A stretch of 64,000 nucleotides of DNA, taken from assembly GCA_016203455.1 (NCBI GenBank), contig JACQMR010000009.1, positions 6,524 to 70,523 of the forward strand, given 5' to 3'. The notes under the pieces were generated by a model. The model made no database searches. It was not told where the DNA came from and saw only the letters and a list, made by a program, of their open reading frames with translations. This DNA is from Candidatus Wildermuthbacteria bacterium. Lineage in GTDB: Bacteria > Patescibacteriota > Minisyncoccia > Minisyncoccales > UBA10102. Each line of letters begins with the position of its first letter. The first letter of the stretch is position 1. The position numbers and the translations under genes were made by a program. Below are positions 996 through 57,663 of this stretch, piece by piece.

Positions 996-1025
996 CATTT
1001 TGGGGTTGTGGCGTACAATATCTTA

Positions 1026-3353: not shown

Positions 3354-3389
3354 AAAACAGGCGGCGGAATTCCTTTTTTTACGAGCGCG

Positions 3390-8944: not shown

Positions 8945-9340
8945 ATGACTGAAAACAAAATCAGATCTTTTACAGACCTCAACGCGTGGAAAGAAGGGCA
9001 TAAGCTTGTACTGATGATTTACAGAACAACCGAACACTTCCCCGGCAGAGAAATGTTCGCCTTAATAAATCAGATGAGGCGATGTGTGATTTCCATAACC
9101 TCAAATATAGCCGAGGGATTCAGTAGGGGCACAAACAACGACAAGTGCCAATTCTACACAACAGCCCAGGGATCGTTGACAGAACTGCAAAATCAACTGT
9201 TAATTGCCCGCGATATCGGATACATCCGACAGGAAGAATTTCAAACGCTTGCCAACCAAACCATTACAACCAACAAACTCCTGAACGGCCTAAAAAGAAT
9301 ACGAAATACAAGCTACAAAATACAAGATACACAGCAATGA
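8945..9340 (+). CDS. Four-helix-bundle protein (23S rRNA intervening-sequence protein / Avd-like family)
   Basis: MTENKIRSFTDLNAWKEGHKLVLMIY...ITSNIAEGFSRG...FYTTAQGSLTELQNQL matches the family signature known from memory. The stop overlaps the next start (ATGA at 9337-9340). Confidence 0.8.
   Translation: MTENKIRSFTDLNAWKEGHKLVLMIYRTTEHFPGREMFALINQMRRCVISITSNIAEGFSRGTNNDKCQFYTTAQGSLTELQNQLLIARDIGYIRQEEFQTLANQTITTNKLLNGLKRIRNTSYKIQDTQQ
9304..9332. repeat. Right arm of TACAAA-word inverted repeat (inside the 3' end of the four-helix-bundle CDS)
   Basis: aaatacaagctacaaaatacaagatacac encodes ...NTSYKIQDTQQ. Confidence 0.7.
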
Positions 9341-9747
9341 GATTCCAGGTTCCCCAATTTATTGAACACGAGGCAAAGGTCATAGGCCCTCTTACTTTCA
9401 AACAGTTCGTGTACCTGGGGGTTCCGGGGGCGATCGGATTCTTTTTATATTTCCTTACTCCTTTCCCCGTATTCATCTCAATCACCATACCTCTTGGCGC
9501 TTTCGGTTTTCTCCTTGGATTTATTAAAATGGGGGGCAGATCTCTCCCCGGACTCCTCTCCAGTTTTGTAAAATTCATCTTTGAGCCCAAAAGATACATC
9601 TGGAGAAAGGGGAAAGCTCCCGCGCAGACACCGCAAGCCAGGTATGTTTCCGCGGCGCCGGAAGAATCATACGGAAAAGCAAAAATACAGCTGGTGCAGA
9701 AAAGCAGGGTGCGAGATTTGGCGATACGGGTGGATACGGCCAAATAG
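9337..9747 (+). CDS. PrgI/VirB3-like small T4SS membrane protein
   Basis: MRFQVPQFIEHEAKVIGPLTFKQFVYL followed by two TM helices. This is the typical PrgI-family N-terminus. The ATG at 9337 is in frame within ORF 9145-9747. Confidence 0.65.
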   Translation: MRFQVPQFIEHEAKVIGPLTFKQFVYLGVPGAIGFFLYFLTPFPVFISITIPLGAFGFLLGFIKMGGRSLPGLLSSFVKFIFEPKRYIWRKGKAPAQTPQARYVSAAPEESYGKAKIQLVQKSRVRDLAIRVDTAK

Positions 9748-9825
9748 GGGAATAATTTTACGCAAGCCGCCAGTTGTTCGTGCTTTGGCATTTATTATCC
9801 GTTATATATTATATACATGTAACCC

Positions 9826-10470
9826 ATGCCCCAGGGATCCACGCAAAACTTTCTTGAAGTAGAGGAAATCAGAGAGGGCATACTGGTGCTTAAAACCCGG
9901 CAGGTGCGCGGGGTGCTTATGGTTTCTTCCCAAAACTTCGCCTTAAAATCCGCAGAGGAACAAGAGGCGATTATCTTTCAGTTTCAGAATTTTCTTAACT
10001 CCCTGGATTTCTCGCTCCAAATATCCATACAGTCAAGACGGCTCAATATCACGGGGTACATTGACTATTTAAAAAACCTTGAACAAGACCAGCCAAACGA
10101 ACTCTTGAAAAACCAGACGGCTGATTACCGGACATTCGTGGAACAGCTTATCTCGGGCGGATCCATTATGGCAAAAAACTTTTTTGTGGTGGTCCCGTTT
10201 TCCCCGCTGGAAGTGGTGGGCGGGTATCAAAAACAATCCCCCGCGGATCAGCAGGGCAAGGTGGGCAAACTTTCAGACGCCCAGTTCCAAAGAATGAAGA
10301 ACCAGCTGTGGCAAAGAATGGAGTATGTTGCCCTGGGCCTGCGCAGAGCCGGTCTCCAGGTTGCTCCCTTGAGCACGGAAGAACTCATTGAGCTTTTGTG
10401 GACCTGGCACCACCCCCAGGAAGCGGAGGTTGGATATTACCCTGAAATACCCCCGGAAATGGTACGATAA
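9826..10470 (+). CDS. Hypothetical protein resembling a VirB4/TraC-type N-terminal domain
   Basis: 214-aa ORF immediately upstream of the VirB4-like ATPase. Pattern FLEVEEIREGILVLKTRQVRGVLMVSSQNFALKSAEEQEAI. Confidence 0.5.
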   Translation: MPQGSTQNFLEVEEIREGILVLKTRQVRGVLMVSSQNFALKSAEEQEAIIFQFQNFLNSLDFSLQISIQSRRLNITGYIDYLKNLEQDQPNELLKNQTADYRTFVEQLISGGSIMAKNFFVVVPFSPLEVVGGYQKQSPADQQGKVGKLSDAQFQRMKNQLWQRMEYVALGLRRAGLQVAPLSTEELIELLWTWHHPQEAEVGYYPEIPPEMVR

Positions 10471-10474
10471 AGAC

Positions 10475-12277
10475 ATGAAGATTCCCTTTATAAAAACAAG
10501 GCGAAAGGCCGTTCCCGGACGCGTCTTTGAAGCGGAGGTGACAACAGCCGCCGATATTATAGCGCCATCTTCCGTGCAGGTGAATTCGGAAAATCTGGAC
10601 ATGTCCGGACGCCTTGCCAAAACCTTTTTTGTTTTCTCATACCCCAGGTATCTCTCGGCCGCGTGGCTTTCCTCCACCATCAACCTGGATGTGCCAATGG
10701 ACATCTCATTATTCATACACCCCATAGACACCACTTTTATCTTAAAACAACTCCGCAGAAGGGTAACGGAAGTGCAATCGGAGATCATGGACAAAGAAGA
10801 CCGGGGACTGGTGAGAGACCCGGAACTGGAAACCGCATTCCAGGATTTGGAAGATCTGCGGGACCGTCTGCAAACCGCCCAAGAAAAAATGTTCCGCCTG
10901 GGGGTGTACATCACCGTATATGGAGAAACAACCGAAGAACTGCGCCAGATTGAAACCACCCTCCGTTCTATTTTTGAATCGCGGCTTTTATACATAAAAC
11001 CCGCTCTGTACCAGCAAAAAGAGGGATTTAACTCCTGCCTCCCGTACGGCAGAGACCTGCTGGGGGTTCACACATCGCTAAATACGGACCCTTTGTCTTC
11101 CACCTTTCCTTTTGTGTCGTTTGACCTGTCTTCCAACGCAGGCATTTTATACGGCATAAACCGGCATAATAATTCCCTTATTCTTTTTGACAGGTTCTCT
11201 TTGGAAAACGCCAACGAGGTCATCTTCGCGAAAAGCGGCTCCGGAAAGTCCTACGCGGTAAAACTGGAGGTATTAAGGTCGCTTATGACCGGCGTAGATG
11301 TTGTGATTCTAGATCCGGAAAACGAATACCGCGCGCTCGCGCAAGCCATTGGCGGCAGTTTTTACGACATCTCTTTGGGATCTGAAAACCATGTAAACCC
11401 TTTTGACCTTCCGGCCCCCAGAGAAGACGAAAAAGCGGAGGATGTATTAAGATCCAACATTATCAATCTTGTGGGCCTCATGCGCATCATGCTGGGAGGC
11501 CTCACCCCGGAAGAAGACGCGATTATGGACAGAGCGATTACTGAAACCTATGCCGCCAAAGACATAACCATAGAGTCAGACCCGGCGGCATGGAAAACAA
11601 ACATCCCGCTTATGGAGGATCTGGAGCAAGTTCTGGAAGGCATGGAAGGGGCCGAGTCCCTGGTGCGCCGCCTCCATAAATTCACCAAGGGAACATATGA
11701 AAATTTCTTTAACCGCCCAACCAACATTGAGCTGGGCGCGAGTCTTATTTCATTTGGCATCCGCGACATGGAAGAAGGCCTGCGGCCCATGGCTATGTAC
11801 ATCATCATGCGGTATATATGGAATATCGTAAGATCTGAATTGAAGCGCAGAATACTGGTGCTGGACGAAGCATGGTGGATCATGCAGTCAGAAGAAGGAG
11901 CGTCTTTTTTATACGGCATTGCCAAGCGCGCGAGAAAATACTATCTGGGGGTTACCACTATTACCCAGGATGTGGGGGACTTTATGAAGTCCTCGTACGG
12001 GAGGCCCATCATCACAAACTCTTCCATACAAATTTTAATGAAACAAAGTCCGGCAACCATAGATCTTCTGCAAAAAGCGTTTAATCTCACAAGCGAAGAA
12101 AAAAATTTACTGCTGGAAACCGATGTGGGTGAGGGAATATTTTTCGCGGGACAAAAACATGTGGCGATTAAAATCGTGGCCTCTCCGGCGGAACACCAAA
12201 TCATCACCACGGCCCCCGAAGAACTCTTAAGAAGACGAGAACAAAAAGACAATCTAACAAACGCGGCGAATCCTTAA
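10475..12277 (+). CDS. VirB4/TrsE/TraC-like T4SS ATPase
   Basis: Walker A FAKSGSGKSY, Walker B ILVLDEAW, N-terminal FFVFSYPRYLSAAWL motif. ATG 10475 lies in frame within ORF 10388-12277. Confidence 0.85.
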   Translation: MKIPFIKTRRKAVPGRVFEAEVTTAADIIAPSSVQVNSENLDMSGRLAKTFFVFSYPRYLSAAWLSSTINLDVPMDISLFIHPIDTTFILKQLRRRVTEVQSEIMDKEDRGLVRDPELETAFQDLEDLRDRLQTAQEKMFRLGVYITVYGETTEELRQIETTLRSIFESRLLYIKPALYQQKEGFNSCLPYGRDLLGVHTSLNTDPLSSTFPFVSFDLSSNAGILYGINRHNNSLILFDRFSLENANEVIFAKSGSGKSYAVKLEVLRSLMTGVDVVILDPENEYRALAQAIGGSFYDISLGSENHVNPFDLPAPREDEKAEDVLRSNIINLVGLMRIMLGGLTPEEDAIMDRAITETYAAKDITIESDPAAWKTNIPLMEDLEQVLEGMEGAESLVRRLHKFTKGTYENFFNRPTNIELGASLISFGIRDMEEGLRPMAMYIIMRYIWNIVRSELKRRILVLDEAWWIMQSEEGASFLYGIAKRARKYYLGVTTITQDVGDFMKSSYGRPIITNSSIQILMKQSPATIDLLQKAFNLTSEEKNLLLETDVGEGIFFAGQKHVAIKIVASPAEHQIITTAPEELLRRREQKDNLTNAANP

Positions 12278-15062: not shown

Positions 15063-15120
15063 CATTCCAACCGCAATGATATGTTTTGCTACCCTTGCTT
15101 GCCTGGGATATACTATTTCT

Positions 15121-16479
15121 ATGAACAAAGAAGAACTCTGGCAGGCAACCCTTGCCCAACTGCAATTCAAAACCTCTCCGGCAAATTTTGCCACATGGCT
15201 GAAAAACACTTATATCTTAGACAACAAAGACGGCTTGCTCACGGTCTCCGTGCCGAATAACTTCTCAAAGGAATGGCTGGAAAATAAATACAACAAAACA
15301 ATCTTTCATATTATTAAAGAACTCAACGACGAAGTAAAAGAAATCAAATACATGGTGGAAAAAACCGCTGGCAAGGCAAAAGAGGCGGCGCCACGGCACG
15401 CGCAACCCTCGCCGCCCGAACGCCAGCTGGGATTCCCCGAATTAGACGCGGACCAAACAACCAACCTAAACCAAAAATACACATTTGAGAATTTTATCGT
15501 TGGCCCGTTTAACGAACTGGCGCATGCCGCGGCCCTGGCAACCGTAAAAAATCCTGGCGGTCCGGGAAATCCGCTGTTTGTGTATGGAGGCGTAGGTCTT
15601 GGGAAAACCCACCTTCTTCAGGCAACGGGAAACCAGATCATACAAAACACTCCGGGAAAAAAGGTGAAGTACATAACTTCCGAATATTTTACATCTTCGG
15701 TGGTTTCCGCGATACGCAACAGAACCGTGGAAACGCTCCGGGAAAAATTCAGGGAACTTGACGCGCTTATTATTGACGACATACAATTTCTCGCGGGTAA
15801 AGAAAAAACCCAAGAAGAGCTGTTCCACACCTTCAATACCCTTTACCAAGCCGGAAAGCAGGTTATCTTTTCTTCTGACCGCCACCCAAAAGCAATCCCC
15901 GCGCTGGAGGAACGGTTGAGATCTCGGTTTGAGGGAGGCATGGTCGCCGATGTTTCCATGCCCGACTATGAAACCCGCCTGGCTATTCTGCGAACAAAAC
16001 TCCAAGAAAAAGGTGTGTTTATGGAAAACGATGTGCTGGATTATATTGCATCTCACATACAAAGAAACATTAGGGAATTGGAAGGAGCCCTAAACAGATT
16101 GATCACATCGTCTCAAGTTGTGGGAAAAATGCCCGCATTGCAGGAAGCTAAAACCCTCTTGCGAAGTATTATTTCCAACCCGAATAAGGCGGCAAACCCA
16201 AGAAAAATCATACAAGTTGTGGCTGAATTTTATGATTTGAAAGAAAAAGAAATTATTGCCGACTCGCGCAAAAAAGAGGTGGTAAGGCCCCGGCAGATCG
16301 CCATGTATCTTTTGCGGGAAGAACTAAAAGGATCATATCCTTTTATTGGCAAAAAATTCGGGGGGAAAGACCACACAACGGCAATATACGCATGTGAAAA
16401 AATCCACAAAGAACTCCAGGAATCAGAGATGCTGGTTGATGAAATATCGTTGATAAAACAGAGAATCTACAGCGGATAA
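15121..16479 (+). CDS. dnaA: Chromosomal replication initiator DnaA
   Basis: Walker A GGVGLGKTHL and C-terminal DNA-binding GGKDHTTAIYA. tatact (15109-15114) lies 6 nt before ATG 15121. The ORF opens at 15076. Confidence 0.95.
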   Translation: MNKEELWQATLAQLQFKTSPANFATWLKNTYILDNKDGLLTVSVPNNFSKEWLENKYNKTIFHIIKELNDEVKEIKYMVEKTAGKAKEAAPRHAQPSPPERQLGFPELDADQTTNLNQKYTFENFIVGPFNELAHAAALATVKNPGGPGNPLFVYGGVGLGKTHLLQATGNQIIQNTPGKKVKYITSEYFTSSVVSAIRNRTVETLREKFRELDALIIDDIQFLAGKEKTQEELFHTFNTLYQAGKQVIFSSDRHPKAIPALEERLRSRFEGGMVADVSMPDYETRLAILRTKLQEKGVFMENDVLDYIASHIQRNIRELEGALNRLITSSQVVGKMPALQEAKTLLRSIISNPNKAANPRKIIQVVAEFYDLKEKEIIADSRKKEVVRPRQIAMYLLREELKGSYPFIGKKFGGKDHTTAIYACEKIHKELQESEMLVDEISLIKQRIYSG

Positions 16480-37712: not shown

Positions 37713-37784
37713 GTCTCCGTAGCTCAACGGATAGAGCGCGGCCCTCCGAAGGCCGAGATCAGGGTTCAATTCCCCGCGGAGACA
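37713..37784 (+). tRNA. tRNA-Arg (anticodon CCG)
   Basis: Hand-folded cloverleaf. Acceptor gtctccg/cggagac, D arm gctc-aacggata-gagc, anticodon stem cggcc/ggccg with loop ctCCGaa, T loop ttcaatt. The T stem has one A-C mismatch. CCA is not encoded. Confidence 0.85.
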
Positions 37785-37874
37785 CAACGCTTTATGGTGC
37801 GGATAACTCATCCGATTTAGTCAGGGCTTTTTCAAGGTTTTTGGCATGAAACGCGGCGTTGGGTATAATGCGGT

Positions 37875-38414
37875 ATGGAGATTGCGATACTGGGCGGGGC
37901 GGTAGTGTTTTTGGTTTTGGGAGCGTTTGTTGGGGTTGTCATGGCCGGGCATATTCTCTTGTTTTCCATAGTGCCTATCTGCTACGGCGCGTTTTACGCG
38001 GGGACTAGAAAAGACAATCTTCAAGAACTCATGGTATTGGCGCAGACGCGTTCAGGTGAAAAAGCCGCGGACTTGGGATCTGGCGACGGAAGGATTGTGA
38101 TTGCATTGGCGAAAGCTGGAGCAATGGCGCATGGGTATGAGATAAATCCTTTGCTGGTGTGGTGGTCGCGCCGCAAGATTAGAAAAGCAGGCCTTCAAAA
38201 TACGGCATGGATATACTGGAGAAACTTTTGGAGCATTGATTTTAGTCCTTTTGATGTGGTCATTGTGTTTGGCGTTTCTACGATTATGAAACAGCTGGAG
38301 GAAAAACTAAAAAAGGAACTTAAACCAGGCGCGCGGGTCGTTTCTAACAGCTTTGCGTTTCCTTTTTGGAAGCCGGAAAAGACCGTTGGCAGAGTGTTTT
38401 TTTATAGAAACTAG
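37875..38414 (+). CDS. Membrane-anchored class I SAM-dependent methyltransferase
   Basis: Two N-terminal TM helices, then motif I DLGSGDGRIVIALA. Confidence 0.65.
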   Translation: MEIAILGGAVVFLVLGAFVGVVMAGHILLFSIVPICYGAFYAGTRKDNLQELMVLAQTRSGEKAADLGSGDGRIVIALAKAGAMAHGYEINPLLVWWSRRKIRKAGLQNTAWIYWRNFWSIDFSPFDVVIVFGVSTIMKQLEEKLKKELKPGARVVSNSFAFPFWKPEKTVGRVFFYRN

Positions 38415-38444
38415 AAAAACATAGCGCGGCTAAGTTTGAAAAGA

Positions 38445-38473
38445 AAAAACGATGAGGGTTGTTCATCGTTTTA
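38445..38473. terminator. Bidirectional hairpin terminator
   Basis: aaaaacgatga-gggttgt-tcatcgtttt lies between convergent genes. Confidence 0.65.
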
Positions 38474-39331
38474 TTGCTTTGCTGGAAGGCGATTAAAGCC
38501 CTGCGCCGTTTGCATCGTTTGGTTTCTCGTCGCGGTCCTTTGCTTTAAAGCATGAGCCGCGAAACTTTGTTTGAGCGTGTTTGGCATGATAGCGCGTTCA
38601 ATGCACGCTTTTTTGCCGTATGTTTTGAGGATGGTCCAGACCCATTGCCGGGATAGGCGGCTGCCCAGGCGACGGTTGATGAAGAGGGCCCCCTCTCTTC
38701 TAGAGGGGCCAAGAAGTGTTTTGCGCGTGGCCCTTAAGTAGTAGACCAACTTGGCGGCTGTGCCGCGGGGAATATAGACAAGTCGTTCTTTCCCCCCTTT
38801 CCCCATGCAGCGGATATGCCCTTGTTCCAGATTGACATCCGCCACATTCAAATTGATCAACTCGCTAACCCGCAATCCGGCGGTGTACAGCAGTTCCATA
38901 ATGGCGGCGTCGCGCTGACCCTCGGCGGTTCCGGCCTGGGCCGCCGCGTCCAGTAAGCGGATAACCTCCTCCTCCGTGAGGGGCTTTGGCAGGGAGCGGT
39001 CCACGCGGTGTGATCCTAGCGACTCGGCGGGGTTTCCGCTTATAATTCCATTAAGGGACATGAAGCGGAAAAAGGATTTTATAGAACATATCTTCCGCGC
39101 CGTAGTGGCGCCCCGGTATCCTTTCTCGTCTCGCAAGTCGGCGATGTATTCGTTCAGCGTGTTCGCGTCCACCAGGCGCCACCCGTTTTCCGAGTTGGAC
39201 GACCCGTTGAGGCGCGGTTTCAAGAAGTTCTTGAGCTGGAATAAATCGTTGCGGTAGGCCTCCCATGTGTTGCGCGAGAACCCCTTTTCCACCAGCAGAT
39301 GGTCAAGGAAGGCGTTGATGGATTTCTCCAT
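38471..39331 (-). CDS. XerC/XerD-like tyrosine recombinase homologue with degenerate catalytic box II
   Basis: The N-terminal SAM-like domain and box I ELLYTAGLRVSEL...GKGGKERLV are intact. The C-terminus reads PNTLKQSFAAHAL...QGFNRLPAKQ-stop where HxLRHSFATHLL...LGH...Y is expected. aaggaggt lies 9 nt before the ATG at 39331. Confidence 0.7.
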   Translation of the reverse strand: MEKSINAFLDHLLVEKGFSRNTWEAYRNDLFQLKNFLKPRLNGSSNSENGWRLVDANTLNEYIADLRDEKGYRGATTARKICSIKSFFRFMSLNGIISGNPAESLGSHRVDRSLPKPLTEEEVIRLLDAAAQAGTAEGQRDAAIMELLYTAGLRVSELINLNVADVNLEQGHIRCMGKGGKERLVYIPRGTAAKLVYYLRATRKTLLGPSRREGALFINRRLGSRLSRQWVWTILKTYGKKACIERAIMPNTLKQSFAAHALKQRTATRNQTMQTAQGFNRLPAKQ

Positions 39332-39468
39332 GGTGTAGGAACCTCCTTTTGCGTGCGTCATATCCCGATTCTGAAACGAGAATGGCATGTGCTATAAATT
39401 ATGTCAAGTTTCTTTACTACAAGGCGAGATCGTTGGCAGAGATGGCCCGGGTTTGGTATATTGCATAT

Positions 39469-50946: not shown

Positions 50947-50970
50947 ACAGCTGGGGATCGGGGTGATTTG

Positions 50971-51329
50971 TGGAGGTGGGGAGGATGAGCTCCCTTCTGG
51001 AGAATTTCCGTTCTTCTCTTGTACGGGCGTATCCTTGTTTAGAAATTCGGGAAGAGCGTAAGAACAAGGCAAAGCCGCTTTTCCTCCGGAGCTGTTTATT
51101 TCGGCAGGCGTCTCTCGTTCCGTGAAACGCCGCCTATCCCGATAATTTGCGCCTCCCCCCAATACCGGGAATCTTAAGAGGAGACGGCTGTGAGCTTTAT
51201 GCTACAGCAAGAGCCCTTTGAGGGGCAAAGATGTTGGCACTTGTGGTGCTCCCGGGGTTTTTAACAAGATGCCCTGGAAACTCGGCCCGGGTGAAAAATT
51301 TCCATTCTCCATCGAAACGATTCACCCCC
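50971..51329 (-). ncRNA. ssrA: tmRNA (SsrA)
   Basis: On the complement the 5' end is GGGGGUGAAUCGUUUCGAUGG. The 3' end is GGGAG-CUCAUC-CUCCC-CACCUCC-A. The acceptor stem GGGGGUG/CACCUCC includes a G3-U70 pair. The tag ORF GCC AAC AUC UUU GCC CCU CAA AGG GCU CUU GCU GUA GCA UAA encodes ANIFAPQRALAVA (51197-51238). It lies directly downstream of smpB. Confidence 0.85.
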
Positions 51330-51765
51330 GTTTTAGCGCCCTTTCTATTTCTCGCTTGGATTCGCGTTTTCTTATGGCGTCGCGTTTGTCGTACTGTTTT
51401 TTGCCGCGCGCCAGAGCGAATTCAAGTTTGATCTTGGCTTTTTTAGTATATACCTTAAGGGGCAATAAAGTCAATCCTTTTTCTTGTGTCTTGCCAATGA
51501 GATACCTGATCTCCCGTTTGTGAACAAGGAGTTTTCTGGTCCGGTCCGGAGCGTAATCTCCGGCGTTTTGGGGCTGATACGGGGGTATGATAGACCCCAA
51601 AAGAAACAGCTCTCCTCCTCTCAAGGCGATGTAAGCTCCGGCAAGTTGTATTCTGCCCTGGGAAACCGATTTTACTTCTTGCCCAAAAAGAACCAAGCCG
51701 GCTTCAAAGGTTTCAATAATTTCGTAGTTTTGACGCGCTTTTCTGTTTTCCGCGAGTACGCCCAT
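51322..51765 (-). CDS. smpB: SsrA-binding protein SmpB
   Basis: NRKARQNYEI...GLVL.G.EVKS pattern, 147 aa. Confidence 0.9.
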   Translation of the reverse strand: MGVLAENRKARQNYEIIETFEAGLVLFGQEVKSVSQGRIQLAGAYIALRGGELFLLGSIIPPYQPQNAGDYAPDRTRKLLVHKREIRYLIGKTQEKGLTLLPLKVYTKKAKIKLEFALARGKKQYDKRDAIRKRESKREIERALKRG

Positions 51766-51805
51766 GGTTTTATTCTACGGCAAAATACGCTACATTAAAA
51801 ACATC

Positions 51806-53563
51806 ATGATAGTGAAAGAATTGGAGAAACTTGTCCAGGCGGCCCTTTTTGCTCTTGCAAAGGAAGGCGTTTTGGATGCGGCACCCGTTGAGCATATTGC
51901 GTTTGAGCATCCGGAGGATAAAAAGCACGGCGATTATTCCGCGAATATCGCCTTGGTTTTGGGAGAAAAGATCGGGAAAAATCCGCGGGAACTTGCCGAA
52001 GGCATCGCGAGGGTTTTTCCGCCGGCGGAGTTTTTAGAAAGGGTTGAGGTGGCGGGCCCCGGTTTTTTGAACTTTTTTTTGTCGCGGGCGTATCTTGCAA
52101 ATGAGCTCGGCGAAATTCTTAAGAAAAAAGAAAAATACGGGAAGGGCGAATGTCGGGGGAAAGTTATTATTGAGTATTCCAGTCCCAATATCGCAAAACC
52201 GTTCGGGATAGGCCATTTGCGATCCACTATTATTGGTCAGGCGATATATAATCTGTACAAGTTTCTCGGGTACGCGTGCGTGGGTATCAATTACCCCGGC
52301 GATTGGGGGACTCCGCATGGCAAGATTCTCTACGAAGTTCATGAGGTTTTGCTCAAAGATAAATCCGCAGAGGAGAAAAAAGATATATTAGAGAATCTAT
52401 CAATAGAGGAATTGGAGCGCTTGTATGTTCAATTTCACAAAGATGCGGCAAGCAATCCTGCATTGGAGGAAGTCGCCCGAAACTGGTTTAAGAAACTGGA
52501 AGACGGAGATAAGGAGGCGCGCATGGTTTGGGAGTACACAAAGAGAGTGAGTTTTAGGGAGTTTGAACGCATATACCGCCTGTTGGATGTTTCAATAGAC
52601 CATACTATCGGAGAGAGTTTCTTTGAGGATAAAATGGATGAGGTAATTAGGGATTTTCAAAAGCGGGGCTTGGCGACAGAGAGCAGAGGCGCGCTTATCG
52701 TATCTTTTCCCAACGAAGAATTGTCGCCCGCGATGCTTTTGAAATCAGACGGCGCGACCACATATTTTACCAGAGATATGGCGAATATGAAGTACCGGCT
52801 GAAACGCTGGAAACCCTCTCTTGTCGTTATTGAAACCGGAGTGGAGCAGAATCTTCACTTTCAACAGGTGTTTCTTGCTTCCCGGCTTGTTGGATATGCG
52901 AAAGACGAGCAGTTCGCGCATGTCTATCACGGGCTGTATAGATCTAAAGAGGGAAAGTTCTCAACCAGGAAAGGAGAGACCATACATCTTGAAGATGTTT
53001 TGCATGACGCGAAAGCCCGGGCGAGAGAGATTTTGGATTCATCAGAGGCGAGTCGGGAATTTTCAGAAAACGAGAAACAGGAGATCGCCGGCGTGGTAGG
53101 CATTGGAGCGGTAAAGTACAACGATCTTTCCCAGCATCCAAGCGGAGACATTGTGTTTGACTGGGATAAGATGCTGAACCTGCGCGGGAATTCCGCCCCC
53201 TATCTCCAGTATACTTATGCTCGGTGCCAGAGCATCCTCCGCAAGTCAAACTTGGCCGGGCCAAGTTATTCACACCTTAACGGGGTTAAGGATGTGAATG
53301 AGGAGGAAATGGGGGTATTGAGGTTGCTGTATAGGTTTCCGGAGGTGGTTGAGGATGCCGCCCGCCGGTTTTCTCCAAATATGGTGTGTTCCTTCGCGTT
53401 TTCCGTGGCGCAGGCGTACAACCTTTTTTACAACACGCATAGGGTGCTGGAAGCGGAAACAAAGGAAATCGCGAATTTTCGCCTCGCTCTCACGAAAGCC
53501 ACCGCCCAGATTATTAAAAACTGTCTGTTCCTTTTGGGTATTCAAGCCCCGGAAAAGATGTAG
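51806..53563 (+). CDS. argS: Arginyl-tRNA synthetase
   Basis: SSPNIAKPFGIGHLRS (HIGH region) and a C-terminal DALR anticodon-binding domain. ATG 51806 lies within ORF 51764-53563. Confidence 0.9.
   Translation: MIVKELEKLVQAALFALAKEGVLDAAPVEHIAFEHPEDKKHGDYSANIALVLGEKIGKNPRELAEGIARVFPPAEFLERVEVAGPGFLNFFLSRAYLANELGEILKKKEKYGKGECRGKVIIEYSSPNIAKPFGIGHLRSTIIGQAIYNLYKFLGYACVGINYPGDWGTPHGKILYEVHEVLLKDKSAEEKKDILENLSIEELERLYVQFHKDAASNPALEEVARNWFKKLEDGDKEARMVWEYTKRVSFREFERIYRLLDVSIDHTIGESFFEDKMDEVIRDFQKRGLATESRGALIVSFPNEELSPAMLLKSDGATTYFTRDMANMKYRLKRWKPSLVVIETGVEQNLHFQQVFLASRLVGYAKDEQFAHVYHGLYRSKEGKFSTRKGETIHLEDVLHDAKARAREILDSSEASREFSENEKQEIAGVVGIGAVKYNDLSQHPSGDIVFDWDKMLNLRGNSAPYLQYTYARCQSILRKSNLAGPSYSHLNGVKDVNEEEMGVLRLLYRFPEVVEDAARRFSPNMVCSFAFSVAQAYNLFYNTHRVLEAETKEIANFRLALTKATAQIIKNCLFLLGIQAPEKM
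53250..53294. repeat. Second copy of the rsmA palindromic element, in-frame in argS
   Basis: Palindrome acttggccgggccaagt (53250-53266), then tattcaca, then ccttaacggggttaagg. The 24 nt cacaccttaacggggttaaggatg (53271-53294) are identical to rsmA 466-489. Confidence 0.85.
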
Positions 53564-53635: not shown

Positions 53636-56600
53636 ATGGACGCGAATTTTCCCAAGATAGAAGAGGAGATTTTAGAGAAGTGGAAGCAAGAGAAAACCTT
53701 TGAGAAGTCGGTCGCGAGGAGAAAGGGATCTCCCCGTTTTGTGTTTTACGAGGGCCCTCCAACGGCAAACGGGAAGCCCGGCATTCATCATGTGGCGTCC
53801 CGGTCGTTTAAGGATGTGGTTCTGCGCTATAAGACCATGGCCGGTTTTTTCGTTCCCAGACGCGCCGGGTGGGATACGCACGGTTTGCCTGTGGAGATCG
53901 CGGTGGAAAAAAAGCTCGGTTTAAAATCCAAGAAAGATATTGAGCGGTACGGCATAGAAAAATTCAATCAAGAATGTAAAAATTCGGTGTGGGAGTACCA
54001 AAAGGAATGGGAGGATGTAACTCGCAGAATAGGGTTTTGGGTGGACACAAAGAATTTTTATGCCACATATCAGACGCCGTTTATTGAAACCCTCTGGTTC
54101 ATCATTCAGACATGGTTTAAAAAAAAGCTTTTATACAAGGGGCATAAGGTGGTTCCGTGGTGCGCGCGGTGCGGGACCGCGCTGTCTTCGCATGAGCTGG
54201 CGCAAGGGTACAAAACTCTTGAAGATCAGTCGGTGTATGTGAAGTTTAAGGTAAAGCCCGGACAAAAAATCGGCAATGGTGTAGCAGACGACAGAACATA
54301 TATTTTGTCTTGGACCACAACCCCGTGGACATTGCCCGGGAATGTGGCGTTGGCGGTTGGAGAAAACATCGCATACATCAAGTATTGGAGAATAATTAAC
54401 GGCAAGAAAGAATCTTGCATTGTAGCGGAGGAACTCTATAAAAAAGAGCCGAACCCGTTTGTTCCCGAAGCGGAGTTCGCCGGAAATGATGTTCCGGCGC
54501 TCGGCGCGGATTCAGAGAGATTGATGGGCAAGGATCTTGTTGGCTTAGCATATGAGCCGCTTTTTGACATGAAAGCGCTTCAGAATGAGCGTTCTCACAA
54601 GGTGTACGCGGCTGATTTCGTGACCACAACAGACGGCACCGGAGTTGTGCATACGGCCGTTATGTACGGCGAAGATGATTACGCGTTAGGAAAGAAAGTT
54701 GGATTGCCGCAATTCCATACGGTTGACGAGCGGGGAAACTTTATCCAGGAAGTTCCGGGCGGGCTTGGAGGATTGTTCGTGAAAGCAAAAGAAACCGAGG
54801 ACAAAATTTTCAGCCACCTTGCGGAAAGCGGCGCTTTTTTTGCCGTTCAGCCGTATTCTCACGAATATCCGCATTGCTGGAGGTGTTCTACTCCTCTGAT
54901 GTATTACGCGAAAGATTCTTGGTTTGTTGATATGCAGAAGGTGAAAAAAGAACTGTTGGCAAACAACAAAAAGATCAATTGGATTCCCGGTCACCTCAAA
55001 GAGGGGAGAATGGGCGAGTGGTTGCGGGAAGTCAAAGATTGGGCGTTTTCGCGGGAAAGGTACTGGGGAACTCCTTTGCCTATTTGGGAATGCAAAGAAT
55101 GCAAACATCAAGAAGCATTGGGCTCTATAAAAGAATTGATCGCGAGACAAGTTCCAAACAATACCTATATTTTAATGAGGCATGGGCATTCAGGAAAGCA
55201 GGAAACCGATCTGATGAGCTGTTGGCCCGAGAAAAAGCCGTTTTCTCTTACCCCCGCTGGCAGGGCGCAGGCGGCAAAGACCGCAAAAGCATTGCGGAAA
55301 AAGAAGATTGATCTGATTGTTTCTTCCGATTTGCTCCGCACGAAAGAAACGGCAGAGATTCTGGCCAAAGCGACAGGTGCTCCCGTTCTGTTTGAGGAGC
55401 GGCTTCGCGAGGTGGACGCGGGGGAGTTAAACGGGAAGAGCGTTCTTTCCATAAGCAGGACCTGGGCGAGAAAAGAAGAAACGGAGACGGAGCATTATCT
55501 GCGCAGGTTTATTGATCCTTTGCCCGGAGGAGAAAATTGGATCCAGGTTCAGCGGAGAATGTATGAGGCGGTGCGCGATTTGGAGAAAAAGCACGCGGGC
55601 AAAACCATTGTTTTGGTTTCCCATGAAGCGCCTCTTACTTTGCTTGAAGGAACCCTGCGCGCGATGTCGCGCGAAGAAATTATTGAATTGAGAAAGAAAA
55701 AGGCCCTGGGGACGGGAGAAGCGCGCCAGACGCCGTTTGCCGATCTTCCGTATAATGCGGCTATGGAACTAGATTTGCACCGCCCTTTTATTGACCGGGT
55801 GGAGTTTCCGTGCGCGGCGTGCGAGAAGGGGCAGATGCAAAGAATTAAGGAGGTTGCCGATGTGTGGTTTGATTCCGGAGCCATGCCGTTCGCCCAGAAC
55901 CATTGGCCCTTCGCTCAAAATCCGAAAAAGCTACAAACTACAAACTACAAACTACAAGCTCCCCCGGACTTTCCCGCCGACTACATCGTGGAAGCGATTG
56001 ATCAAACCCGCGGCTGGTTCTATACTTTGCTCGCGGTTTCTACGCTTTTGGGCTTTGGGCCTCCGTACAAAAATGTTATATCTCTGGGCCATGTGCTGGA
56101 CGAGAAAGGAGAAAAGATGTCTAAATCCAAAGGGAATGTCGTAGATCCCCGGGACATGATTGAAAAATACGGCACCGATACCCTTCGCTGGTATTTTTTC
56201 ACGCTAAGCCATCCGGAAGATCCAAAACTGTTTTCGGAAAAAGATCTTATTCAGGTTTCCCGCAAGTTCATCTCAACTCTTTGGAACTCGTTTCTCTTTT
56301 ACGATACTTACGGGGCTTCGGTTTCCGTAAAAACTCCTCAACCCGATTCTCCGCTGGACTTTTGGATTTTGTCGCGGTTGCACGCGGTTATCGCGGCAAT
56401 GACAAAAACCATGAATTCTTACGACATTACCGGCTCTGCCAGGGTTTTGGAGGATTTTGTCATCAATGATTTGTCTCTGTGGCATATCCGCAGATCCAGG
56501 CCAAGATTTCAAAACCCCGCAACCAAAAAAGAGTTTGAAAGCGCGCGTTCCGTGCTGGGGTTTGTTTTGGCGCAGGTGAGCATACTGTCTGCCCCATTCA

Positions 56601-57205
56601 TTCCTTTTTTGAGCGAGCATATATATGGAAAGCTGGCAAAACAAAAAGAGAGCGTTCATTTGGAATCCTGGCCCAAGCCGGAAACTCGCTTTATGAAGCC
56701 CCTGTTAGACAAAGAGATGGCGCGGGCGCGGGAACTTGCGAGCAAGGGACTTGCATTGAGAGCTGTCGCCGGCATAAAGGTGCGCCAGCCGCTCGCGGCA
56801 TTAAAGATTAAAGATACACAAAAATTCAAAAAAGAGGTATTGGAAATTATACAAGACGAACTTAATGTGAAGCGGATTATCACGGATGCTTCGTTGCCGC
56901 GGGACGCGGAGTTGGATACCGTTATTACGCCTTCTTTGTTTGAGGAGGGCGTTGTGCGAGAGATCATAAGAAATGTGCAGGGGATGAGAAAGGATTCGGG
57001 GTATAAGCCCAAAGATAAGGCATGGCTGTATTACCGGTGCGCGGTTCCTTTGCAGGAGTTATTTTCGCGCAATGAGAAAAAAATTCGCGATGCGGGCGGC
57101 TTGACGGAGTTGCGCAAAGGAGATAGGCCAAAAGAGGTGTTTGATGTGGAGAAGACCATGTCTCTCTCAAGCGGAGAGTTATGGCTGGGAATGAAAAAAG
57201 TATAG
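53636..57205 (+). CDS. ileS: Isoleucyl-tRNA synthetase with an inserted histidine-phosphatase domain
   Basis: PTANGKPGIHHV (HIGH), WTTTPWTLPGN editing domain, KMSKSKGN. An extra ~200 aa with RHG...SSDLLRTKETA...VSHEAP lies between WECKEC and FPCAACEKG. Confidence 0.9.
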   Translation: MDANFPKIEEEILEKWKQEKTFEKSVARRKGSPRFVFYEGPPTANGKPGIHHVASRSFKDVVLRYKTMAGFFVPRRAGWDTHGLPVEIAVEKKLGLKSKKDIERYGIEKFNQECKNSVWEYQKEWEDVTRRIGFWVDTKNFYATYQTPFIETLWFIIQTWFKKKLLYKGHKVVPWCARCGTALSSHELAQGYKTLEDQSVYVKFKVKPGQKIGNGVADDRTYILSWTTTPWTLPGNVALAVGENIAYIKYWRIINGKKESCIVAEELYKKEPNPFVPEAEFAGNDVPALGADSERLMGKDLVGLAYEPLFDMKALQNERSHKVYAADFVTTTDGTGVVHTAVMYGEDDYALGKKVGLPQFHTVDERGNFIQEVPGGLGGLFVKAKETEDKIFSHLAESGAFFAVQPYSHEYPHCWRCSTPLMYYAKDSWFVDMQKVKKELLANNKKINWIPGHLKEGRMGEWLREVKDWAFSRERYWGTPLPIWECKECKHQEALGSIKELIARQVPNNTYILMRHGHSGKQETDLMSCWPEKKPFSLTPAGRAQAAKTAKALRKKKIDLIVSSDLLRTKETAEILAKATGAPVLFEERLREVDAGELNGKSVLSISRTWARKEETETEHYLRRFIDPLPGGENWIQVQRRMYEAVRDLEKKHAGKTIVLVSHEAPLTLLEGTLRAMSREEIIELRKKKALGTGEARQTPFADLPYNAAMELDLHRPFIDRVEFPCAACEKGQMQRIKEVADVWFDSGAMPFAQNHWPFAQNPKKLQTTNYKLQAPPDFPADYIVEAIDQTRGWFYTLLAVSTLLGFGPPYKNVISLGHVLDEKGEKMSKSKGNVVDPRDMIEKYGTDTLRWYFFTLSHPEDPKLFSEKDLIQVSRKFISTLWNSFLFYDTYGASVSVKTPQPDSPLDFWILSRLHAVIAAMTKTMNSYDITGSARVLEDFVINDLSLWHIRRSRPRFQNPATKKEFESARSVLGFVLAQVSILSAPFIPFLSEHIYGKLAKQKESVHLESWPKPETRFMKPLLDKEMARARELASKGLALRAVAGIKVRQPLAALKIKDTQKFKKEVLEIIQDELNVKRIITDASLPRDAELDTVITPSLFEEGVVREIIRNVQGMRKDSGYKPKDKAWLYYRCAVPLQELFSRNEKKIRDAGGLTELRKGDRPKEVFDVEKTMSLSSGELWLGMKKV
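55931..55958 (+). repeat. Heptamer tandem repeat (ctacaaa x4) in-frame in ileS
   Basis: ctacaaactacaaactacaaactacaag encodes LQTTNYKLQ. It lies in a loop that is about 10 aa shorter in other IleRS as recalled. Confidence 0.85.
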
Positions 57206-57207
57206 AG

Positions 57208-57663
57208 ATGGCTCTGCGCTACAAAACACAAGGAGTCATACTGCAGAGAAAAGATGTTGGCGAGGCGCACAGGGTGTTCACCGTATTTACAAAAGAATTT
57301 GGGAAGGTGCTTGTTTGGGCGGTATCGGAACGGAAGATAGGGTCAAAGCTTCGCGGGGGTTTGGAATTGTTTTCTCTTTCACATCTGGAATTCGTGGAGG
57401 GAAAAGAGCGCAGAGTTCTTGTTGAGGCGATTTGTTTGGAACAGCAGGTGTTTCTTAAGAATGATTTGCGGAAAATTCAGGCGGCGCAAGGCATGTGTGA
57501 ATTCCTGGATCGCCTCGTTGGCGAAGAGCAAGGAGACCTGGAGCTGTGGGATTTATTGAGATCTTCGTTCGCGGAGCTCAAAGACCACGGATCCCCCAAA
57601 GCCGTATATTCGCTGTTCGTATCCCGCGCTTTGGAGGCGGCGGGATACGGGGCGCGCAATTAA
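57208..57663 (+). CDS. recO: DNA repair protein RecO (short form)
   Basis: MALRYKTQGVILQRKDVGEAHRVFTVFTKEFGK OB-fold N-terminus, typical of RecO. Confidence 0.65.
   Translation: MALRYKTQGVILQRKDVGEAHRVFTVFTKEFGKVLVWAVSERKIGSKLRGGLELFSLSHLEFVEGKERRVLVEAICLEQQVFLKNDLRKIQAAQGMCEFLDRLVGEEQGDLELWDLLRSSFAELKDHGSPKAVYSLFVSRALEAAGYGARN

What the first reader, a model, noticed from the sequence alone, without database searches (positions are those of the whole stretch)
55160..55765. Complete histidine-phosphatase (RHG) domain inserted into the zinc knuckle of IleRS
Seen: about 200 extra residues lie between WECKECKHQEALGSIKELIARQ and [38 protein letters not shown]. They carry the hallmark motifs of the histidine phosphatase (phosphoglycerate-mutase-like) superfamily in the right order: LMRHGHS, SSDLLRTKETAEIL, LREVDAGELNG, VLVSHEAPL.

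Established: the RHG His, the two Arg and the distal His form the catalytic core of that superfamily. In other IleRS, as recalled for Thermus thermophilus, the two CxxC halves are joined by a short linker.

Inference: this is an apparently catalytically competent phosphatase nested in an essential synthetase. It might act on a nucleotide, on a tRNA end or on a synthetase by-product. I am not aware of this architecture being described.
Basis: partly seen in the sequence, partly recalled or inferred. Interest (0 to 1): 0.7.

Follow-up and report, generated by a model that had tools for sequence, protein, structure and literature searches.

The report
Phosphatase domain nested inside IleRS
An essential protein-synthesis enzyme (isoleucyl-tRNA synthetase) of a tiny uncultured bacterium carries a complete, apparently active phosphatase looped out of its catalytic core; in sister lineages the same phosphatase is a separate gene just in front of the synthetase gene, so the two are long-standing partners, but what the phosphatase acts on is unknown.

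Summary
Window 53636-57205 (+) is one uninterrupted 1189-aa type-2 IleRS. Residues about 509-705 form a complete branch-1 histidine phosphatase (His_Phos_1, E=1e-35) between the two CxxC pairs of the CP3 zinc knuckle.

It is not a chimera. 108 of the 120 closest IleRS clusters carry the insert at the same site, all labelled Patescibacteria/Parcubacteria or unnamed. The catalytic set (R515, H516, G517, R568, E592, H663) is near-invariant, and the synthetic and editing motifs of IleRS are intact. AlphaFold models are confident (pLDDT 92 for the whole protein, 96 for the module).

New here: in related lineages the same phosphatase is a free gene wedged between argS and an insert-less ileS, usually overlapping its start by 4 nt (50 of 59 free copies). 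The nested form looks derived. It was later deleted at least twice, leaving sequence scars. Related copies occur in tandem, at a second IleRS site, in a ValRS and fused to TsaC.

The substrate is unknown. My leading but weak hypothesis is a tethered phosphomonoesterase that acts on a tRNA or nucleotide phosphate. A functionally unrelated neighbour-gene capture is nearly as likely. I found no publication describing the architecture.

The parts
53636..57205 (+). ileS: type-2 isoleucyl-tRNA synthetase, 1189 aa, with the nested phosphatase
   Evidence: Single ORF. TIGR00392 scores 840.8 bits. Pfam finds tRNA-synt_1, Anticodon_1 and DUF5915. The AF2 model has pLDDT 92.2 and pTM 0.88. Best Foldseek matches are 8c8v (IleRS2) and 1ile, TM 0.82-0.91 normalised to the target.
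53780..53791 (+). Class I signature motif in its non-canonical G-X-H-H form (G49-I-H51-H52)
   Evidence: Read directly from the sequence. G49, H51 and H52 are near-invariant in the clade. The motif class is described in PMC10485003.
54311..54343 (+). CP1 editing-domain motif WTTTPWTLPGN (W226-N236). The editing residues H339 (54650-54652) and D348 (54677-54679) are also intact.
   Evidence: W226, T227-T229, W231, T232, L233, N236, H339 and D348 are invariant in 119 sequences.
55091..55102 (+). First CxxC pair (C486, C489) of the CP3 zinc knuckle
   Evidence: Conserved in 108/108 and 107/108 clusters. CP3 is zinc-binding in T. thermophilus IleRS (PMC7191050).
55160..55750 (+). Nested histidine phosphatase module (N509-P705). 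It equals a whole free-standing HP protein, from the N-terminal NxYxxLRHG motif to the C-terminal GExR motif.
   Evidence: PF00300 at E=1.1e-35. The module-only AF2 model has pLDDT 96.1. Foldseek neighbours are PspA, GpgP, dPGM and CobC at TM 0.70-0.79. Boundaries come from insert-less linkers and free-protein termini.
55178..55186 (+). RHG motif: R515, H516 (predicted phospho-accepting nucleophile), G517
   Evidence: Conserved in 108/108, 108/108 and 106/108 clusters. Also conserved in free, ArgRS-, TsaC- and ValRS-linked copies.
55337..55339 (+). R568, the second phosphate-binding arginine (SSDLLRT motif)
   Evidence: Conserved in 108/108 clusters.
55409..55411 (+). E592, predicted general acid (RLRE motif)
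   Evidence: E in 100 and D in 8 of 108 clusters. Aligns with the RLRE motif of PhoE 1ebb/1h2e.
55622..55624 (+). H663, the distal catalytic histidine (VSHE motif)
   Evidence: Conserved in 107/108 clusters.
55811..55822 (+). Second CxxC pair (C726, C729) of the CP3 zinc knuckle
   Evidence: Conserved in 108/108 clusters.
56114..56128 (+). KMSKS motif (K827-S831)
   Evidence: Position. K827, M828 and K830 are invariant.
51764..53563 (+). argS, the conserved upstream neighbour. In sister lineages the free HP gene lies between argS and ileS.
   Evidence: Translation. Synteny.
57181..57663 (+). Short recO-like gene, the conserved downstream neighbour of the block
   Evidence: RecO_N and partial RecO_C. 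Synteny.

Best explanation
Shown: the insert is a complete, independently folding branch-1 histidine phosphatase of the PhoE/PspA/GpgP type. All catalytic residues are under purifying selection. It loops out of the CP3 subdomain of an otherwise fully intact type-2 IleRS. The module is a lineage-specific partner of ileS in Parcubacteria-type Patescibacteria. Apparently it was first a separate gene overlapping the ileS start, then was captured whole into CP3, and was later deleted at least twice. It also varies in copy number and position.

Inferred mechanism: the module works as an autonomous phosphomonoesterase. H516 attacks a terminal phosphate to form a phospho-histidine. E592 protonates the leaving group. 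R515, R568 and H663 hold the phosphoryl group, and water then releases phosphate.

Inferred role (weak): the synthetase tethers it next to its client, most likely a phosphate-bearing tRNA end or nucleotide met at the charging step. An example would be a 2'/3'-phosphate on the acceptor end that blocks aminoacylation. It would then be an accessory repair or clearing activity, not a step of the normal IleRS cycle.
For: Fold and active site:
- His_Phos_1 at E=1e-35.
- Confident AF2 models, and Foldseek neighbours that are all branch-1 phosphatases or mutases.
- The catalytic set is conserved in 106-108 of 108 clusters and in every copy context.
- The IleRS signature, KMSKS and CP1 editing motifs are invariant, so the host enzyme is not degenerate.

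Partnership with ileS:
- Of 80 metagenome loci, 21 have the nested form.
- Of the 59 free HP genes, 50 sit directly upstream of an insert-less ileS, with a median gap of -4 nt.
- No end-to-end N-terminal fusion was seen. All 20 evaluable nested loci, and every protein that matched the IleRS N-terminal part, have the HP internal.

Direction and dispensability:
- IleRS with an upstream free HP are basal on the body tree and have scar-free linkers.
- Insert-less IleRS inside the nested clade keep either the post-HP linker 'LPH(D/N)ENGEVDLHRP' or the HP N-terminal 'SxNPY'.
- Their loci have no HP within 8-10 kb.

Link to tRNA enzymes beyond synteny:
- HP copies sit at the homologous CP3 site of a ValRS.
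- A second copy lies just before the anticodon-binding domain in some IleRS.
- TsaC::HP fusions lie in a cluster with the CCA-adding enzyme, tgt, a queuosine-salvage gene and truD.

Other support:
- The module is basic, with median pI 9.1-9.6, like the tRNA-binding body.
- Precedent for a phosphatase built into a tRNA 3'-end enzyme: the HD domain of the CCA-adding enzyme (PMC10673834).
Against: - No substrate evidence exists. The closest solved relatives all act on small metabolites.
- The attachment points differ: CP3, a site before the anticodon domain, and the TsaC C-terminus. The module also works as a separate protein in many lineages. Both facts argue against a precise geometric hand-off of the CCA end.
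- The smpB-argS-ileS-recO block is syntenic as a whole, so adjacency alone is weak evidence of functional coupling.
- The ArgRS-HP fusion is explained by simple stop-codon loss between neighbours.
- Patescibacterial TsaC is fused to many unrelated domains, so its HP fusion may mean little.
- The ValRS case rests on one low-coverage contig.
- The trees are NJ trees without support values or an outgroup.
Confidence: 0.35

Rival explanations
1. Neutral capture of a neighbour. The HP is a housekeeping or general small-molecule phosphatase whose gene happens to lie between argS and ileS in this compact, syntenic genome block. A rearrangement dropped it into the permissive CP3 loop. It keeps its own unrelated job, and the fusion has no mechanistic meaning.
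For: - The closest solved and structural relatives are metabolic phosphatases or mutases.
- The whole block is syntenic.
- The ArgRS-HP fusion shows that neighbour fusions happen by accident.
- The module functions as a separate protein in most basal lineages.
- It is dispensable for IleRS.
- Patescibacterial proteins such as TsaC fuse promiscuously.
Against: - The easy fusion, read-through of the 4-nt overlap into an N-terminal fusion, is never seen. The topologically hard internal CP3 insertion radiated widely instead.
- The same CP3 site is used in a ValRS.
- The TsaC::HP fusion lies in a different, tRNA-maturation locus.
- Copy number ranges from 0 to 4, which is unusual for a housekeeping enzyme.
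- No curated metabolic subfamily cut-off is reached.
Confidence: 0.3
2. By-product scavenger. The HP hydrolyses pyrophosphate or AMP released by adenylate-forming enzymes (IleRS, ValRS, TsaC), pulling the activation step forward locally.
For: - All hosts convert ATP to an adenylate plus PPi (established biochemistry of aaRS and TsaC).
- In TsaC the HP occupies the C-terminal position.
- The module has many conserved basic residues and a high pI, which suit a polyanionic ligand.
- No pyrophosphatase gene lies in the 64-kb window, though this is weak evidence.
Against: - To my knowledge, no branch-1 histidine phosphatase is an inorganic pyrophosphatase.
- One soluble PPase would serve all 20 synthetases, so an IleRS-specific one is hard to justify.
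- Destroying AMP is costly for organisms that are thought to salvage nucleotides.
- The module is repeatedly lost without local replacement.
Confidence: 0.15
3. Regulatory or protective phospho-site domain. The pocket binds a phosphorylated ligand to tune IleRS, or it removes a phosphate that a kinase toxin places on the synthetase itself.
For: - The phosphate-binding residues are strictly conserved.
- The pattern is accessory and volatile in copy number, as is typical of conflict or regulation modules.
- The host IleRS lineage already shows an antibiotic-resistance signature, GXHH.
Against: - The general acid E592 and the nucleophile H516 are both conserved, which points to turnover rather than mere binding.
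- The module works as a separate gene in many lineages.
- There is no PADLOC or phage link.
- No kinase is known to target IleRS.
Confidence: 0.1
4. Artefact: an assembly chimera, an intein or a mobile-element insertion.
For: GC is slightly higher in the insert (0.53) than just upstream (0.43-0.47).
Against: - The reading frame is uninterrupted.
- The same architecture occurs in more than 100 clusters from NCBI, JGI, ENA and Logan, on contigs up to 729 kb, and in 21 metagenome loci.
- The insert's GC lies within the window's normal range.
- There are no flanking direct or inverted repeats above chance.
- Pfam finds a phosphatase and no Hint or endonuclease domain.
Confidence: 0.01

Closest known systems
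PhoE (Bacillus stearothermophilus, 1ebb/1h2e), PspA phosphoserine phosphatase (4ij5), mycobacterial glucosyl-3-phosphoglycerate phosphatase GpgP (4pz9/6s2q)
   Same: They share the branch-1 histidine phosphatase fold, a size of about 190-210 aa, and the RHG, Arg, 'RLRE' Glu and distal His catalytic set. They are the best sequence matches (E=2.6e-12) and structure matches (TM 0.70-0.79).
   Different: They are free-standing metabolic enzymes only about 25% identical to the insert. The window module is nested in, or genetically coupled to, IleRS. It reaches no curated subfamily cut-off, and its substrate is unknown.
Type-2 IleRS with the non-canonical G/AXHH signature motif (Deinococcus radiodurans type; P. 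megaterium IleRS2 structures 8c8v/8c8w)
   Same: The host enzyme has the same fold (TM 0.82), the C-terminal DUF5915 region, a GIHH motif, KMSKS and an intact CP1 editing site.
   Different: None of the described IleRS2 carries a catalytic domain in CP3. PMC10485003 and the 2026 preprint on IleRS domain evolution do not mention one.
CP1 editing domain of class Ia synthetases (IleRS, ValRS, LeuRS)
   Same: It is an independently folding hydrolytic domain nested in a connective-peptide loop of the Rossmann fold, giving a second active site on one polypeptide (established knowledge; domain layout in PMC7191050).
   Different: CP1 is universal and essential for fidelity, and it acts on the aminoacyl ester. 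The HP is lineage-specific and dispensable, sits in CP3 and is built for phosphate monoesters.
HD domain of the bacterial CCA-adding enzyme
   Same: It is a phosphohydrolase built into a tRNA 3'-end enzyme and is thought to clear 2',3'-cyclic or monophosphates from tRNA ends (PMC10673834 citing Yakunin 2004). It is the functional analogy behind the leading hypothesis.
   Different: It has an unrelated fold and a metal-dependent mechanism, and it is a terminal fusion rather than a nested domain. RNA-end activity of the HP module is untested.
Bifunctional RNase H / acid phosphatase (NCBIfam PRK07238 type) and the GNAT-containing IleRS (NCBIfam NF040702)
   Same: The first is another case of a His_Phos_1 domain fused to a nucleic-acid enzyme and is the best NCBIfam hit of the insert (88 bits). 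The second is another IleRS carrying an extra catalytic domain.
   Different: Both score far below their cut-offs (88 vs 326 bits; 314 vs 1999 bits), so the window protein is a member of neither. I did not examine where the GNAT domain sits.

Membership tests
Histidine phosphatase superfamily, branch 1 (Pfam His_Phos_1, PF00300) | Profile match above the curated gathering score | tested here: met
   118.5 bits in the whole protein and 123.5 bits for the insert alone, against a cut-off of 21.7.
Histidine phosphatase superfamily, branch 1 (Pfam His_Phos_1, PF00300) | RHG motif with the nucleophilic His, a second Arg, a general-acid Glu and a distal His, in that order | tested here: met
   R515-H516-G517, R568, E592 and H663 are present and conserved in 100-108 of 108 orthologous clusters. 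They align with the PhoE motifs.
Histidine phosphatase superfamily, branch 1 (Pfam His_Phos_1, PF00300) | The alpha/beta fold of the superfamily | tested here: met
   The AF2 model of the module has pLDDT 96.1 and pTM 0.92. All top 50 listed Foldseek PDB matches are family members, with TM up to 0.79.
Histidine phosphatase superfamily, branch 1 (Pfam His_Phos_1, PF00300) | Phosphatase or mutase activity through a phospho-histidine intermediate | not testable with these tools
   This needs an enzyme assay with an H516A control.
Characterised subfamilies: dPGM (NF038349), CobC alpha-ribazole phosphatase (TIGR03162), PspA (NF045917), SixA (TIGR00249), RNase H/acid phosphatase (NF005567) | Score at or above the curated equivalog cut-off | tested here: not met
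   The scores are 85.1 vs 225, 82.8 vs 162.9, 67.9 vs 350, 26.9 vs 74.5 and 88.3 vs 326 bits.
Isoleucyl-tRNA synthetase (TIGR00392), type 2 | Equivalog score above the cut-off, and the type-2 C-terminal architecture | tested here: met
   840.8 bits against 621.4. Anticodon_1 and DUF5915 are present. Structural matches are 8c8v and 1ile.
Isoleucyl-tRNA synthetase (TIGR00392), type 2 | Class I signature motif, KMSKS, and CP1 editing residues | tested here: met
   GIHH (the G/AXHH variant known only in IleRS2, PMC10485003), KMSKS at 827-831, WTTTPWTLPGN at 226-236, H339 and D348.
Isoleucyl-tRNA synthetase (TIGR00392), type 2 | Aminoacylation of tRNA-Ile and editing of Val | not testable with these tools
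   This needs a biochemical assay. It is the only IleRS in the 64-kb window, but the rest of the genome was not seen.
Intein or mobile genetic insertion | Hint or homing-endonuclease domain, splice-junction residues, or flanking target-site or terminal repeats | tested here: not met
   Pfam finds only His_Phos_1 in the insert. No repeats above chance flank it.
Known anti-phage defence components (PADLOC-DB) | Match to any defence-system profile | tested here: not met
   There were no hits for the insert, the free HP P0128 or TsaC::HP P0393.

The most novel reading that the evidence does not exclude
The phosphatase is a third active site on the synthetase that the flexible tRNA acceptor end can visit. 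It removes a blocking 2'/3'-phosphate, or a toxin-installed pyrophosphate, from the CCA end immediately before charging. tRNA end-repair, or immunity to tRNA-targeting toxins, would then be built into an aminoacyl-tRNA synthetase. The free upstream gene would be the trans-acting ancestor of that site.
Probability: 0.12. Interest if true: 0.9.

Novelty: new variant of a known kind. Interest (0 to 1): 0.6.

Why it matters
Aminoacyl-tRNA synthetases are among the best-studied enzymes. Their extra domains (editing, tRNA-binding, signalling) have repeatedly revealed new biology. Here a second, chemically unrelated hydrolase with an intact active site is nested in the catalytic core of an essential class Ia synthetase across a large radiation of uncultured, host-dependent bacteria.

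The same enzyme is kept translationally coupled to ileS where it is not nested. It has also spread to a ValRS and to the t6A enzyme TsaC. If the coupling is functional, it points to an unrecognised phosphate-removal step linked to tRNA charging or tRNA maintenance in Patescibacteria.

Even if the coupling is neutral, this is an unusually well-documented natural series of whole-gene capture into an internal loop of a neighbouring essential gene. It runs from a free gene to a nested domain to scarred deletions. That is useful for understanding how nested multi-domain enzymes such as the CP1-bearing synthetases arise. The system is directly testable with recombinant protein.

Tried and rejected
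- **Assembly chimera, intein or mobile element:** rejected.
- **HP replacing a degenerate editing domain:** rejected, because the CP1 motifs are invariant.
- **ArgRS-HP fusion as independent evidence for a general aaRS link:** rejected. argS and the free HP gene are immediate neighbours, often overlapping, so the fusion is a trivial stop-codon loss. Only 3 clusters exist.
- **Membership in dPGM, CobC, PspA or SixA:** all scores fall below the curated cut-offs. The 'SHExPL/SHGDPL' motif differs from the 'HGN' motif that I recall for mutases.
- **Subfamily signature unique to the nested copies:** none found beyond motifs shared with the free copies.
- **Docking geometry of the HP relative to the synthetic and editing sites:** could not be done. 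The prediction tool returns no coordinates or PAE.
- **First metagenome scan with a 47-sequence alignment:** failed for lack of a conserved stretch and was redone with 10 sequences.
- **Defence-system and phage links:** none.
- **HP remnant in the argS-ileS spacer of the insert-less locus L006:** I read the spacer, and it is too short (457 nt) to hold an HP gene.
- **Literature:** eight searches found no description of the architecture.
Full report
**1. The observation**

The window contains a single ORF, 53636-57205 (+), of 1189 aa. The 202 codons at 55160-55765 read in frame and carry LMRHGHS, SSDLLRTKETAEIL, LREVDAGELNG and VLVSHEAPL in that order.

Pfam places His_Phos_1 (PF00300) on residues 512-682, at E=3.7e-34 in the whole protein and 1.1e-35 for the insert alone. 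The IleRS profile (TIGR00392, 840.8 bits against a cut-off of 621.4) and Pfam tRNA-synt_1 are split around it. The insert lies between C486/C489 and C726/C729.

**2. Not an artefact**

A search of 5.8 billion clustered proteins returned 120 best hits. They are either named Patescibacteria/Parcubacteria (Wildermuth-, Yanofsky-, Jorgensen-, Lipton- and Pacebacteria) or unnamed. They come from NCBI, JGI, ENA and Logan, on contigs up to 729 kb.

In a joint alignment, 108 of the 120 have 221-245 residues between the CxxC pairs and 12 have 34-41. GC content across the insert lies within the window's normal range, and no repeats above chance flank it. Pfam finds no intein or endonuclease signature.

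**3. Both enzymes look functional**

Across the 108 insert-bearing clusters, conservation is as follows:
- R515 108, H516 108, G517 106, R568 108, H663 107.
- E592: 100 E plus 8 D.
- E633 107 and R641 106.
- The four knuckle cysteines: 107-108.

In the PhoE alignment the 'RLRE' motif containing E592 aligns with PhoE's 'RLRE'. From my knowledge of the family, that Glu is the general acid.

The host keeps its own motifs: the class I signature (in the GIHH form), KMSKS at 827-831, and the CP1 editing motifs WTTTPWTLPGN, H339 and D348, which are invariant in 119 sequences. The phosphatase therefore does not replace a lost editing site.

AlphaFold2 with a 119-sequence alignment gives pLDDT 92.2 and pTM 0.88 for the whole protein, with the insert blocks at 93-98. 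The best PDB matches are type-2 IleRS 8c8v and T. thermophilus 1ile, at TM 0.82-0.91 normalised to the target.

The module modelled alone reaches pLDDT 96.1. Its neighbours are PspA, mycobacterial GpgP, dPGMs and CobC, at TM 0.70-0.79 and about 25% identity. It reaches no curated subfamily cut-off.

The insertion site is the CP3 subdomain. CP3 is zinc-binding in T. thermophilus IleRS but not in the S. aureus or Candida enzymes (PMC7191050).

**4. The same phosphatase is a separate gene in sister lineages**

An exhaustive search with the insert alone found 11,934 relatives. Of the 150 best representatives, 79 are IleRS fusions or fragments of them and 71 are HP-only, mostly proteins of 187-214 aa. 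The free proteins share the insert's subfamily motifs: NxYxxLRHG, WPE, DKRLRE, ILIVSH and a C-terminal GExR.

One free copy (P0128) lies 8 nt upstream of an insert-less ileS, in a locus that also carries argS and recO. A metagenome scan seeded with free copies found 433 relatives. I classified the best 80 loci:
- 21 have the nested form, 17 of them with argS directly upstream.
- 59 have free HP genes.
- 50 of those 59 have an insert-less ileS immediately downstream, with a median gap of -4 nt (overlapping stop and start). 44 also have argS upstream.
- In 5 more, the contig ends before the downstream gene.
- 3 loci have two tandem free HP genes.

The block is smpB(-), argS, [HP], ileS, recO, then a DUF11/DUF7619-like gene. 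This is exactly the window's context.

**5. Direction of evolution**

On an NJ tree of 168 IleRS bodies with the insert region removed, IleRS with a free upstream HP form the basal groups. The nested forms make one large inner radiation, and the 12 insert-less sequences sit inside it.

The linkers settle the direction:
- IleRS with a free upstream HP have a short, scar-free CP3 linker, for example GSIEEIKKNQIKEYKLDDLHRP.
- One insert-less group keeps the post-HP linker (...RAHALPH(D/N)ENGEVDLHRP; compare nested ...LPxNExxELDLHRP).
- Another insert-less group keeps the HP's own N-terminal SxNPY.

These are two independent deletions with different breakpoints. Three such loci (L006, L094, L095) have no HP gene within 8-10 kb.

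The nested domain corresponds to essentially the whole free protein. The easy N-terminal read-through fusion was never observed. All 20 evaluable nested loci, and every protein that matched the IleRS N-terminal part, have the HP internal. The trees have no support values and no outgroup, so the number of events is tentative. The scars are direct evidence.

**6. Other contexts of the module**

- **ArgRS.** ArgRS with a C-terminal HP exists in 3 clusters. It sits in the same block with ileS absent, so it is best read as a stop-codon loss between neighbours.
- **Multi-copy IleRS.** Some divergent IleRS carry two tandem HPs in CP3 (P0132). Others carry one in CP3 and another just before the anticodon-binding domain (P0160). 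These lack the CP3 cysteines, so the zinc knuckle is not required for hosting the domain.
- **ValRS.** One ValRS (P0147) carries four HP copies. Copies 2-4 follow 'WGHRIPVW', the homologous CP3 site. This contig has low coverage.
- **TsaC.** TsaC::HP fusions form about five clusters. P0393, the one whose locus I examined, lies next to the CCA-adding enzyme, tgt, a queuosine-salvage gene and truD, not in the argS/ileS block. Patescibacterial TsaC is, however, also fused to MGMT-type, TruB, 2H phosphoesterase, NUDIX, glycosylase and GNAT domains, which weakens the inference.
- **Catalytic residues.** All scored copies in multi-copy proteins keep the catalytic residues. One copy (P0179.d1) has Gln at the positions of E633 and R641.
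- **Charge.** The modules are basic, with median pI 9.1-9.6, like the IleRS body (9.2). Six other proteins encoded in the window range from pI 4.9 to 8.7.

**7. What it most likely does**

Shown: it is an intact phosphomonoesterase-type active site. It has been genetically coupled to ileS for a long time, captured into CP3, proved dispensable, and varies in copy number.

Inferred chemistry: phospho-histidine catalysis through H516, with E592 as the general acid.

The substrate is open. My ranking is:
- **(a) A tethered phosphatase acting on a tRNA or nucleotide phosphate at the charging step, about 0.35.** An example is a blocked acceptor end. The supporting evidence is the internal-site preference, the ValRS and TsaC contexts, the basic charge, the accessory and volatile pattern, and the precedent of the CCA-enzyme HD domain (PMC10673834).
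- **(b) Neutral capture of an unrelated neighbour, about 0.30.**
- **(c) PPi or AMP scavenging, about 0.15.**
- **(d) Regulatory or anti-kinase roles, about 0.10.**

I could not test docking geometry because model coordinates are not exposed. There is no link to known defence systems or phages.

**8. Comparison with what is known, and novelty**

Both component families are textbook. Nested hydrolytic domains in class Ia synthetases (CP1) and phosphatases in tRNA-end enzymes (the HD domain of Cca) are known concepts. NCBIfam also lists an IleRS with a GNAT domain.

I found no paper describing a histidine phosphatase in or next to IleRS. Two recent IleRS evolution papers do not mention it. Public annotations merely call these proteins 'class I tRNA ligase family protein'.

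I rate it a new variant of a known kind, with interest 0.6. The architecture is robust, widespread and testable, with a clear evolutionary series. The functional meaning is unresolved, and a neutral origin remains plausible.

Noticed in passing
window 53780-53791: The class I 'HIGH' signature of this IleRS reads G-I-H-H. G49, H51 and H52 are near-invariant in the whole clade. This is the non-canonical G/AXHH motif that PMC10485003 links to mupirocin hyper-resistance in IleRS2. That study's text makes no mention of Patescibacteria.
   Followed up: partly
window 57181-57663: The recO-like gene is only 160 aa (RecO_N plus a partial RecO_C), against about 240 aa in related loci. It overlaps the 3' end of ileS by 25 nt. 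It may be truncated or degenerating.
   Followed up: no
window 55928-55955: A 14-nt tandem duplication (AAGCTACAAACTAC / AAACTACAAACTAC) lies inside ileS. It encodes the KLQTTNYKLQ repeat, shortly after the CP3 knuckle.
   Followed up: no
window 50968-51329 (-): Rfam finds a tmRNA (90 bits) next to smpB (51322-51765, -), but ARAGORN did not report it in the same window.
   Followed up: no
L092/L093 (P0147), locus 366-3851: A ValRS carries four histidine-phosphatase domains: one in the CP2 region and three in tandem at the CP3 site. The fourth is cut short and the ORF ends before the C-terminal half of ValRS. Coverage is about 2x, so frameshifts or misassembly are possible.
   Followed up: partly
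proteins P0395-P0507; L089 1964-3292: Patescibacterial TsaC (the t6A TC-AMP synthase) is fused to a striking range of partners. The commonest is the MGMT-type DNA_binding_1 domain. Others are TruB, 2H/CPDase phosphoesterases, NUDIX, a methylpurine glycosylase, GNAT and the HP module. This looks like a nucleic-acid repair and modification theme.
   Followed up: no
P0132, P0160, P0205: Divergent IleRS of 1419-1468 aa carry two HP domains: either tandem in CP3, or one in CP3 and one just before the anticodon-binding domain. Both CP3 CxxC pairs are absent in P0132 and P0160, the two I checked.
   Followed up: partly
window 3390-7730 and 9145-12277: There is a 1446-aa ORF with no Pfam match, followed by PrgI-like and TraG/VirB4-like (type IV secretion-type) genes. 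They lie a few kb from dnaA (15076-16479) and dnaN.
   Followed up: no
window 37713-39388: tRNA-Arg(CCG) is followed by a small methyltransferase gene and a tyrosine recombinase (Phage_integrase) gene on the minus strand. This could be an integration hotspot.
   Followed up: no
L016, L017, L023: Two tandem free-standing HP genes precede ileS. Both copies have the full catalytic set, with Asp in place of Glu at the general-acid position.
   Followed up: partly
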